From positions 4,526,001 through 4,590,000 of the forward strand of contig OX597838.1 of the NCBI GenBank assembly GCA_951406725.2: a stretch of 64,000 nucleotides of DNA, in the 5' to 3' direction. A program made the translations under genes and the position numbers. Shown piece by piece: positions 47,390-47,597 of this stretch; position 1 is the stretch's first letter; each line of letters starts with the position of its first letter. Under the pieces are notes generated by a model. It ran no database searches, was not told where the DNA came from, and saw only the letters and a list, made by a program, of their open reading frames with translations. This stretch comes from Octopus vulgaris (lineage: Eukaryota).

Positions 47390-47392
<3 letters not shown>

Positions 47393-47591
47393 GGTCCCGG
47401 GTTGAGTCGGGGTTAACCACAGTAAATAAGGTACTCAATACATAGCAGAGTAAATTAATTTATTTTATAGAAGGAGCTTCTACAGGACTAGAACTGTTTC
47501 ATTCAAATGAAATCTTCAGGAAGCTTCCTGAAGATTTCATTTGAATAAAACAGTTCTAGTCCTGTAGGAGCTCCTTCTATAAAATAAATAA

Positions 47592-47597
<6 letters not shown>
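47390..47597. mobile_element. (TA)n-embedded element containing a 132-bp palindrome with a hammerhead fold on each strand
   Basis: Arms 47458-47523 and 47524-47589 are reverse complements with 2 mismatches, centred on AAGCTT. Confidence 0.85.
47475..47525 (-). ncRNA. Candidate type-I hammerhead ribozyme
   Basis: AGCTTC-CTGAAGA-TTTC-ATTT-GAAT-GAAA-CAG-TTCTAGTC-CTG-TA-GAAGCT: 6-bp stem I, both core boxes, stem III ACAG/CTGT, GUA cleavage triplet; weak stem II with a U-U closing pair. Confidence 0.65.

What the first reader, a model, noticed from the sequence alone, without database searches (positions are those of the whole stretch)
47390..47597. Palindromic back-to-back double hammerhead cassette inside a (TA)n tract
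Seen: a 132-bp inverted repeat with no spacer (66-bp arms, 2 mismatches, centre AAGCTT). Each strand reads as a type-I hammerhead whose stem-I 5' strand overlaps the palindrome centre. The minus copy (47475-47525) is AGCUUC-CUGAAGA-UUUC.AUUU.GAAU-GAAA-CAG.UUCUAGUC.CUG-UA-GAAGCU with a GUA cleavage site. The plus copy (47522-47572) has GAAA->AAAA at G12 and a G-U wobble in stem I. Known: Penelope-like elements carry minimal hammerheads in pseudo-LTRs that can be inverted, and G12 is catalytically essential. Inference: a non-autonomous PLE/retrozyme-like mini-element in which one strand may still self-cleave, while read-through transcripts would instead form a 66-bp dsRNA hairpin (potential ADAR/Dicer substrate).
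Basis: partly seen in the sequence, partly recalled or inferred. Interest (0 to 1): 0.8.

Follow-up and report, generated by a model that had tools for sequence, protein, structure and literature searches.

The report
Mirror-image Penelope retroelement stump, octopus
This 200-base palindrome in an octopus genome is two head-to-head scraps of a high-copy repeat that carries a hammerhead-ribozyme motif, likely left by one truncated insertion of a Penelope-type jumping gene, an arrangement already described in other animals and predicted to silence both ribozymes.

Summary
In detail: 66-bp arms, no spacer, two mismatches, a type-I hammerhead in each arm, the right one G12A. It is one copy of a high-copy octopus repeat: 1771, 1021, 928 and 105 contigs from four runs lay on it. 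The only core variant listed is at N7, the free position. The family normally continues into non-palindromic sequence at the fold point. The two outer ends are recurrent family 3' ends, one with a 68-bp tail, each abutting (TA)n. This matches the published Penelope-like element (PLE) insertion: a head-to-head inverted 5'-truncated copy, a palindromic junction and a tail at one end. The same hammerhead subtype lies downstream of a decayed PLE-type reverse transcriptase in L005. This family's own RT/endonuclease ORF was not found. In either read-through direction the antisense arm is transcribed first, so the hammerhead fold is predicted to vanish (P about 1e-12 with 14 extra nt); self-cleavage at this locus is unlikely. 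It is not a tandem retrozyme, and a fold-back artefact is unlikely. Verdict: a new member of a known kind, useful mainly as a footprint of how PLEs integrate.

The parts
47324..47389 (.). Left (TA)n tract, the target flank
47390..47457 (-). 68-bp unpaired 3' extension ('tail') of the longer arm; ends at the family's long 3' end against (TA)n
   Evidence: Unpaired; covered by family contigs in all four runs (tables 2, 8); tail at one end is a PLE hallmark (PMC8557442, PMC3846280)
47458..47523 (-). Left arm: hammerhead-bearing 3' module of the repeat family
47475..47525 (-). Intact type-I hammerhead motif: stem I 6 bp, CUGAAGA 47519-47513, stem II 3 bp on a U-U mismatch, G12 at 47500, stem III 4 bp with near-palindromic loop, GUA site with predicted cut between 47481 and 47480
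   Evidence: among core positions only N7 (47515) has a variant row
47466..47484 (-). 8-bp hairpin over the cut site that competes with stem I (predicted, -5.3 kcal/mol)
47522..47525 (.). Self-complementary AGCT junction shared by both arms, at the 5' edge of stem I; other family copies continue here into non-palindromic sequence
   Evidence: loose ends behind 47525 in 17, 4, 12 and 2 contigs of X1, X3, X4, X8 (table 7)
47524..47589 (+). Right arm: inverted copy ending at the family's short 3' end (mirror of 47458)
   Evidence: loose ends before 47458 reading (TA)n in 8, 5 and 8 contigs of X1, X3, X4
47522..47572 (+). Mutated hammerhead motif: G12A at 47547, G-U in stem I at 47568
   Evidence: the left-arm letters at the mirror sites have no variant row, so the right arm is the likely derived one
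47590..47640 (.). Short (AAAT) filler and right (TA)n tract, the target flank

Best explanation
The insert is two head-to-head copies of the hammerhead-bearing end of a high-copy octopus repeat, likely left by one severely 5'-truncated, inverted insertion of a Penelope-like retrotransposon into a (TA)n tract, and now likely inert. Shown: the geometry, the high-copy family, the conserved core, the two recurrent 3' ends that each abut (TA)n, and the AGCT overlap at the junction. Inferred: the element's endonuclease cut both strands in (TA)n. Each end primed reverse transcription on uncut element RNA, one at the outer start site (giving the tail) and one at the inner site. Both cDNAs stopped at the 5' edge of hammerhead stem I and were joined through the self-complementary AGCT. 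The right arm later gained two changes, including G12A. Predicted: a read-through transcript folds as a 66-bp hairpin and neither hammerhead forms; the ribozyme would act only in the parent element's RNA, weakly and probably as a dimer.
For:: 1771/1021/928/105 contigs laid from four runs under three organism labels. The 7 variant rows are N7, loop II, loop III, two AT-rich downstream sites, and the mirror images of N7 and loop II; none is at another core base. Both arms carry the same minority loop-II letter (the other letter holds 78-94% of depth at 47508), as expected from one template lineage. 7 of the 32 listed pieces cross the centre by 23 or more positions on each side, each with 5-9 other letters and 1-11 gap letters, so other loci have head-to-head junctions near this point. 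A second inverted joint (47474 to 47548) stands in one contig of each of the three DNA runs. Papers: head-to-head inverted pLTRs with junction palindromes and a one-sided tail (PMC3846280; PMC8557442); opposite-strand hammerhead pairs in truncated PLEs (PMC4209133); a PLE protein cuts and extends both strands, starts at two internal sites that bracket the tail, and uses uncut RNA (PMC11167929). L005: the same core and U-U stem II lie about 540 bp downstream of a decayed RT on the same strand (RVT_1 E 4e-8; tblastn 2e-62 to 655-aa RT proteins).
Against: This family's own RT/GIY-YIG ORF was not seen: 0 of 147 window ORFs hit RT or GIY-YIG, tblastn of PLE-type RTs against the window was empty, and no genome is held. 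The tail is 68 bp, against 30-40 bp in print. No target-site duplication can be read in (TA)n. L005's stem I is only 4 bp, within the chance band of my filter (mean 1.8 per 100), and its full-length relatives show no GIY-YIG hit. The same core also occurs in phage-like contigs and 3' UTRs, so it is not PLE-specific. No listed contig matches this exact locus across the centre (3840 pieces not shown). The junction mechanism is inferred from one locus.
Confidence: 0.8

Rival explanations
1. Same PLE origin, but the second arm was made by self-priming (fold-back) at AGCT rather than by a second priming event at the target.
For: Proposed for PLE junction palindromes in PMC3846280. It explains near-identical arms that share a minority allele and the zero spacer.
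Against: The right arm stops at the family's recurrent short 3' end next to (TA)n, which a fold-back copy has no obvious reason to hit. A PLE protein extends both cut strands in vitro.
Confidence: 0.35
2. A fragment of a non-LTR retrozyme (tandem hammerhead repeat that makes circular RNA), rearranged into a palindrome.
For: The hammerhead has all three stems and a U-U based stem II like axolotl retrozyme HHR_Amex2 (PMC7229834). A preprint argues that retrozymes derive from PLE ends (10.64898/2026.07.22.740005).
Against: No tandem unit at this locus. Both ends abut (TA)n. No head-to-tail joint is listed, though contigs show presence, not absence.
Confidence: 0.1
3. The double cassette is itself a mobile, MITE-like unit, or a hairpin kept by selection as an ADAR or Dicer substrate.
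For: A stable hairpin is predicted. Centre-crossing contigs exist in all four runs, one in the run guessed to be RNA (record 32).
Against: Crossing pieces differ in junction. Depth just past the centre is about 5,500-6,700 against peaks of 0.86-1.68 million in the DNA runs (edge effects may contribute). No transcript of this locus was shown. The nearest likely host ORF ends about 6 kb away (40311-41438).
Confidence: 0.06
4. Assembly fold-back artefact.
For: Perfect palindromes inside microsatellites are hard to assemble. No listed contig spans this exact junction with this locus's letters.
Against: The arms differ at two sites, the symmetry stops after 66-70 bp, the flanks are not mirror images (best E 0.13), both ends are natural family ends, and similar junctions occur in independent runs at depths 12-169.
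Confidence: 0.04

Closest known systems
Inverted, 5'-truncated insertions of endonuclease-positive Penelope-like elements (Adineta Pen2a/Pen3a, PMC3846280; Fig. 2 legend of PMC8557442; Anolis PAc, PMC11167929)
   Same: Head-to-head inverted terminal module, palindrome or overlap at the junction, tail on one end only, hammerhead in the terminal module, (TA)n target.
   Different: Both halves are cut down to the hammerhead module with no ORF left; the tail is 68 bp rather than 30-40; the overlap is 4 nt; the parent ORF is unidentified.
PLE hammerheads of Cervera and de la Pena 2014 (PMC4209133), including opposite-strand pairs about 100-700 bp apart
   Same: Type-I topology, CUGANGA/GAAA core, palindromic stem III region, U-rich upstream and AU-rich downstream.
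   Different: Has a real 4-bp stem III; lacks G10.1-C11.1 (U-U instead); the two motifs overlap at zero distance.
Axolotl retrozyme hammerhead HHR_Amex2 (PMC7229834)
   Same: Type I with a U-U mismatch at the base of stem II; that ribozyme cleaves weakly alone (22% in 1 h) and better as a dimer.
   Different: Amex2 sits in head-to-tail 350-bp repeats that give circular RNA; no tandem repeat here.
Hydra-1_Obim and the Octopus Naiads (supplement of PMC8557442)
   Same: Octopus PLE families that target (TA)n.
   Different: Hydra-1_Obim's listed hammerhead has different stems. Naiads lack canonical hammerheads. Six short motifs of this family had no hit in that supplement (line breaks could hide a hit).

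Membership tests
Type-I hammerhead ribozyme | Core C3-U-G-A-N-G-A9 | tested here: met
   Both arms; in the family only N7 has a variant row
Type-I hammerhead ribozyme | G12-A13-A14-A15.1 and NUH cut site (left arm) | tested here: met
   GAAA and GUA present; no variant row at 47500
Type-I hammerhead ribozyme | G12 general base (right arm) | tested here: not met
   A at 47547; role of G12 from PMC6155905
Type-I hammerhead ribozyme | Stems I, II and III can pair | tested here: met
   6, 3 and 4 bp; the full fold is a minor state in nearest-neighbour models, P 0.004 for the window allele and 0.03-0.04 with the majority loop-II letter
Type-I hammerhead ribozyme | G10.1-C11.1 pair | tested here: not met
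   U-U mismatch; an active precedent is in PMC7229834. The same stem II occurs with stem I of 6 bp or more in 8 of 100 pattern matches, against a mean of 0.35 in swapped controls; those 8 are about 4 distinct sequences
Type-I hammerhead ribozyme | Covariation in stems among family copies | tested here: inconclusive
   No stem variant rows at 3% or more, so the stems are conserved but show no compensatory change
Type-I hammerhead ribozyme | Rfam hammerhead model match | tested here: not met
   No hammerhead family among 64 matches with E<=10
Type-I hammerhead ribozyme | Self-cleavage | not testable with these tools
   Needs an in vitro assay
EN+ Penelope-like element insertion | Inverted 5'-truncated copy joined head to head | tested here: met
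EN+ Penelope-like element insertion | Tail at one end only | tested here: met
   47390-47457; short and long ends both recur; longer than the published 30-40 bp
EN+ Penelope-like element insertion | Hammerhead in the terminal module | tested here: met
EN+ Penelope-like element insertion | AT-rich or (TA)n target | tested here: met
   Both flanks; (TA)n loose ends in other copies
EN+ Penelope-like element insertion | Parent ORF with PLE RT and GIY-YIG endonuclease | tested here: inconclusive
   Not in the window; no genome; only the indirect case of L005
EN+ Penelope-like element insertion | Target-site duplication | tested here: inconclusive
   Cannot be read inside (TA)n
Non-LTR retrozyme | Head-to-tail tandem units of 150-450 bp, each with a hammerhead | tested here: not met
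   Two copies, head to head, no tandem unit
Non-LTR retrozyme | Circular RNA from double cleavage | not testable with these tools
   Only contigs were available
Naiad PLE | Lacks a canonical hammerhead | tested here: not met
   A three-stem motif is present; definition from PMC8557442

The most novel reading that the evidence does not exclude
The cassette is a clean fossil of twin-primed PLE integration. Both cut DNA ends prime on the same uncut RNA at the two start sites that bracket the tail, both cDNAs halt at the 5' edge of hammerhead stem I, and they anneal through AGCT. The hammerhead would then act as a boundary for reverse transcription (a folded block, or an RNA end at a splice-acceptor-like site) rather than as scissors, with the 8-bp hairpin over the cut site keeping it off. 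A family with thousands of copies would make the open question of what PLE hammerheads do testable by counting junctions.
Probability: 0.3. Interest if true: 0.55.

Novelty: new member of a known kind. Interest (0 to 1): 0.27.

Why it matters
As a locus it is most likely a dead retroelement scrap. Its value is mechanistic. How Penelope-like elements make inverted ends, and what their hammerheads are for, are stated as open in PMC8557442 and PMC11167929. This insert shows both 3' ends, an uncut ribozyme site in both arms and a 4-nt junction at the ribozyme's edge, in a family with many copies. If such palindromes are transcribed they would add to the octopus pool of double-stranded RNA for editing, but that was not shown.

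Tried and rejected
No genome is held, so copy number, the empty site and the parent ORF could not be read. Rfam gave only hairpin-driven miRNA matches below gathering score (best MIR5649, 62 of 100 bits); rejected as a generic hairpin effect. An exact 25-nt family motif had 0 matches in metagenome and genome contigs. The one viral match, L001, has no stems. 91 of 100 degenerate-core matches had no hammerhead stems. No RNA holder was listed; runs marked RNA are guesses and contigs cannot show strand, ends or level, so nothing is concluded on expression or editing. The fall in depth towards 47525 was not used as evidence that 5' ends cluster there, because edge effects would give the same. The tailed arm as a whole folds no better than shuffles (z -0.47). 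Alignment A1 does not put stems I and III in register, so pair counting on it was dropped (one search failed on an unbalanced string) in favour of a swap control. Earlier findings by sequence, place and octopus words were empty. Print searches: 'octopus' + 'hammerhead ribozyme', 'penelope' + 'octopus' + 'neptune' + 'transposable' and 'penelope-like' + 'twin priming' listed no paper that, by title and abstract start, describes this family or twin priming for PLEs; the library lacks most subscription papers.

Full report
Observation. The arms 47458-47523 and 47524-47589 pair over 66 bp with no spacer and two mismatches, 47500/47547 and 47479/47568. Nothing else like it lies in the window: the next non-trivial palindrome has 18-bp arms. 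Rfam did not recognise it as a hammerhead: 0 of 64 weak matches and no gathering hit in the window. The insert is asymmetric, with 68 unpaired bases at 47390-47457, and both ends abut (TA)n.

Host. A 375-aa ORF 6 kb upstream is 79% identical to an Octopus bimaculoides protein, so the host is very likely an octopus. No whole genome was available.

The family. Twenty of 24 listed runs hold the stretch or part of it. I laid four of them, three guessed DNA or unknown and one guessed RNA, on 47386-47600: 1771, 1021, 928 and 105 contigs, with summed depth peaking at 0.86-1.68 million in the DNA runs against 12-226 for single listed pieces. The tool warns that this is no copy number; I infer only many thousands of copies. 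Seven variant rows at 3% or more are listed: N7 of the core, loop II, loop III, two AT-rich downstream sites, and the mirror images of N7 and loop II. No other core base and no stem base varies at that level, though contigs drop rare variants. The loop III variant makes the stem III region more self-complementary (self-dimer -15.2 against -12.8 kcal/mol; monomer -1.4), which fits the dimeric cleavage described for PLE hammerheads (PMC4209133, Results and Discussion read). The left-arm letters at both mismatch sites have no variant row, so both changes are likely derived on the right arm. Both arms share a loop-II letter that is the minority in all four runs.

Ends and junction. Loose ends behind 47525 (17, 4, 12 and 2 contigs) show that other copies run on into ordinary sequence there. 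The palindrome is therefore a junction at the 5' edge of stem I, with a four-base self-complementary overlap. Loose ends before 47458 read (TA)n (8, 5 and 8 contigs), so many copies stop at the point where the right arm stops; others run on through the tail (92 loose-end rows not shown). Seven of the 32 listed pieces cross the centre (records 5-8, 15, 16, 32), each with 5-9 other letters and 1-11 gap letters. Only record 7 clearly meets the tool's 31-letter bridging rule, and none is this exact locus; 3840 pieces were not shown. One more inverted joint, 47474 to 47548, stands in one contig of each DNA run. Depth just past the centre is 0.2-0.7% of the peak. Head-to-head junctions are thus recurrent and variable but a small minority.

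Link to Penelope-like elements. The layout is the one in print. PMC8557442 (passages, section 11 and supplement searches) describes an inverted 5'-truncated copy beside the terminal repeat, a 30-40 bp tail at one end, and (TA)n targets. PMC3846280 (passages) reports abundant head-to-head inverted repeats with palindromes at the junction. PMC4209133 reports opposite-strand hammerhead pairs. I found no RT or GIY-YIG ORF in the window (0 of 147 ORFs; tblastn empty). A degenerate core pattern gave 100 matches in 98 loci, 9 with stems I and III; 8 have stem I of 6 bp or more against 0.35 expected, about four distinct sequences. So the U-U based stem II is a real hammerhead subtype, with an active precedent in axolotl (PMC7229834, passages and section 15). 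One match, L005, lies about 540 bp downstream of a decayed RT on the same strand. Its motifs resemble the Neptune RT rows printed; calling it PLE-type rests on those motifs, partly recalled, and its 4-bp stem I alone is within chance. The other matches are phage-like or in 3' UTRs, so the subtype does not prove PLE origin. The family is not Hydra-1_Obim, whose hammerhead differs.

Mechanism. PMC11167929 (parts 1 and 2 of 4 read, plus passages) shows a PLE protein that cuts and extends both strands of AT-rich DNA, starts reverse transcription at two internal sites that bracket the tail, and uses uncut RNA. Read onto this locus: each flank carries an element 3' end, one long and one short; both arms include the intact cut site, so the template was uncut (or re-ligated); both stop at stem I and overlap by AGCT. 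I favour two priming events joined by microhomology (about 0.45 of the total) over fold-back self-priming (about 0.35), as proposed in PMC3846280. Copying one RNA region twice would need an RT without RNase H, which I recall for PLEs but did not check. All of this is inference from one locus plus short contigs.

Can it cleave? The isolated left motif adopts the three helices with predicted probability 0.004. The window's loop-II letter favours a misfold that uses G12-A14, and the majority letter raises the figure to 0.03-0.04. These models ignore tertiary contacts, so low values do not exclude activity. In context, both strands put the antisense arm 5' of the hammerhead. The probability drops to 6e-5 with 6 extra bases and 1e-12 with 14, and the whole insert folds as a hairpin at -111 to -114 kcal/mol. 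Only an RNA starting within a few bases of the centre could cleave, and nothing shows one. The right motif lacks the general base G12 (PMC6155905, passages). Editing or Dicer processing needs transcription, which was not shown.

Artefact check. The arms differ, the symmetry is short, the flanks are not mirror images, the ends are natural family ends, and similar junctions occur in independent runs. An assembly fold-back is unlikely but not excluded without long reads.

Earlier scan notes (unchecked AI notes, leads only) describe palindromic stump insertions of PLEs in a shark-like genome and 5' ends at the stem I edge in two others. This locus agrees, but I could not test clustering across the family.

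Other papers seen: bioRxiv 10.64898/2026.07.22.740005, part 1 of 5 (its supplements are closed and may list related families), and PMC6431247, passages only, not used. File 1 of the PMC4209133 supplement was not searched.

Verdict. Real, and explained by a known process: a new member of a known kind, interest 0.27. The boldest reading left open, that the hammerhead marks where twin-primed reverse transcription stops, has probability about 0.3 and would merit 0.55.

Noticed in passing
window 50157-50365, motif 50227-50262 (+): A second, unrelated minimal type-I hammerhead (extra base after A9, 4-bp stem II, palindromic two-base stem III) in a roughly 200-bp insert between (TA)n tracts; likely another PLE family.
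   Followed up: partly
window 5264-5346: 83-bp insert between (TA)n tracts with weak similarity (E 0.006) to the 3' part of the 50157-50365 insert; possibly a tail-only PLE scrap.
   Followed up: partly
window 15708-15834: 127-bp insert between (TA)n tracts. Its right end (+) reads as a hammerhead-like motif with C in place of U4, almost no stem II and a long stem I, and it is weakly similar (E about 1) to this family's tail on the opposite strand.
   Followed up: partly
window 47466-47484 (-): An 8-bp hairpin covers the cut site and the 3' strand of stem I; it lowers the predicted hammerhead fold 4- to 14-fold once 10 downstream bases are present. A candidate off-switch.
   Followed up: partly
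window 47522-47526, loose ends: On the minus strand the AG at the fold point is preceded in most upstream variants by U and a U-rich run, like a splice acceptor. In Drosophila virilis Penelope the intron's 3' end maps to the 5' end of helix I (PMC4209133).
   Followed up: no
L009, L055, L058, L034, L046: Phage-like contigs carry complete type-I hammerheads with the same U-U based stem II, next to or between genes; L055 has two, 705 bp apart, each ahead of an ORF.
   Followed up: partly
L041:1509-1580, L048:1385-1456: The same HH9-like hammerhead (Rfam E 8e-5 and 2e-4, below gathering score) lies 3' of two different eukaryote-like ORFs, scramblase in sense and a PfkB kinase in antisense.
   Followed up: partly
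L034:6907-7198: A permuted tmRNA (73 bits, gathering score 47) in a phage-like contig.
   Followed up: no
P0002, P0004: 655-aa PLE-type RT proteins with no GIY-YIG hit, possibly an endonuclease-less or split-ORF lineage.
   Followed up: no
window 40311-41438 (+): 375-aa ORF without Pfam match, 79% identical to an uncharacterized Octopus bimaculoides protein.
   Followed up: partly
window 51633-51716: 84-bp unique insert inside a long (TA)n tract, with a small internal palindrome; possibly another truncated insertion.
   Followed up: no
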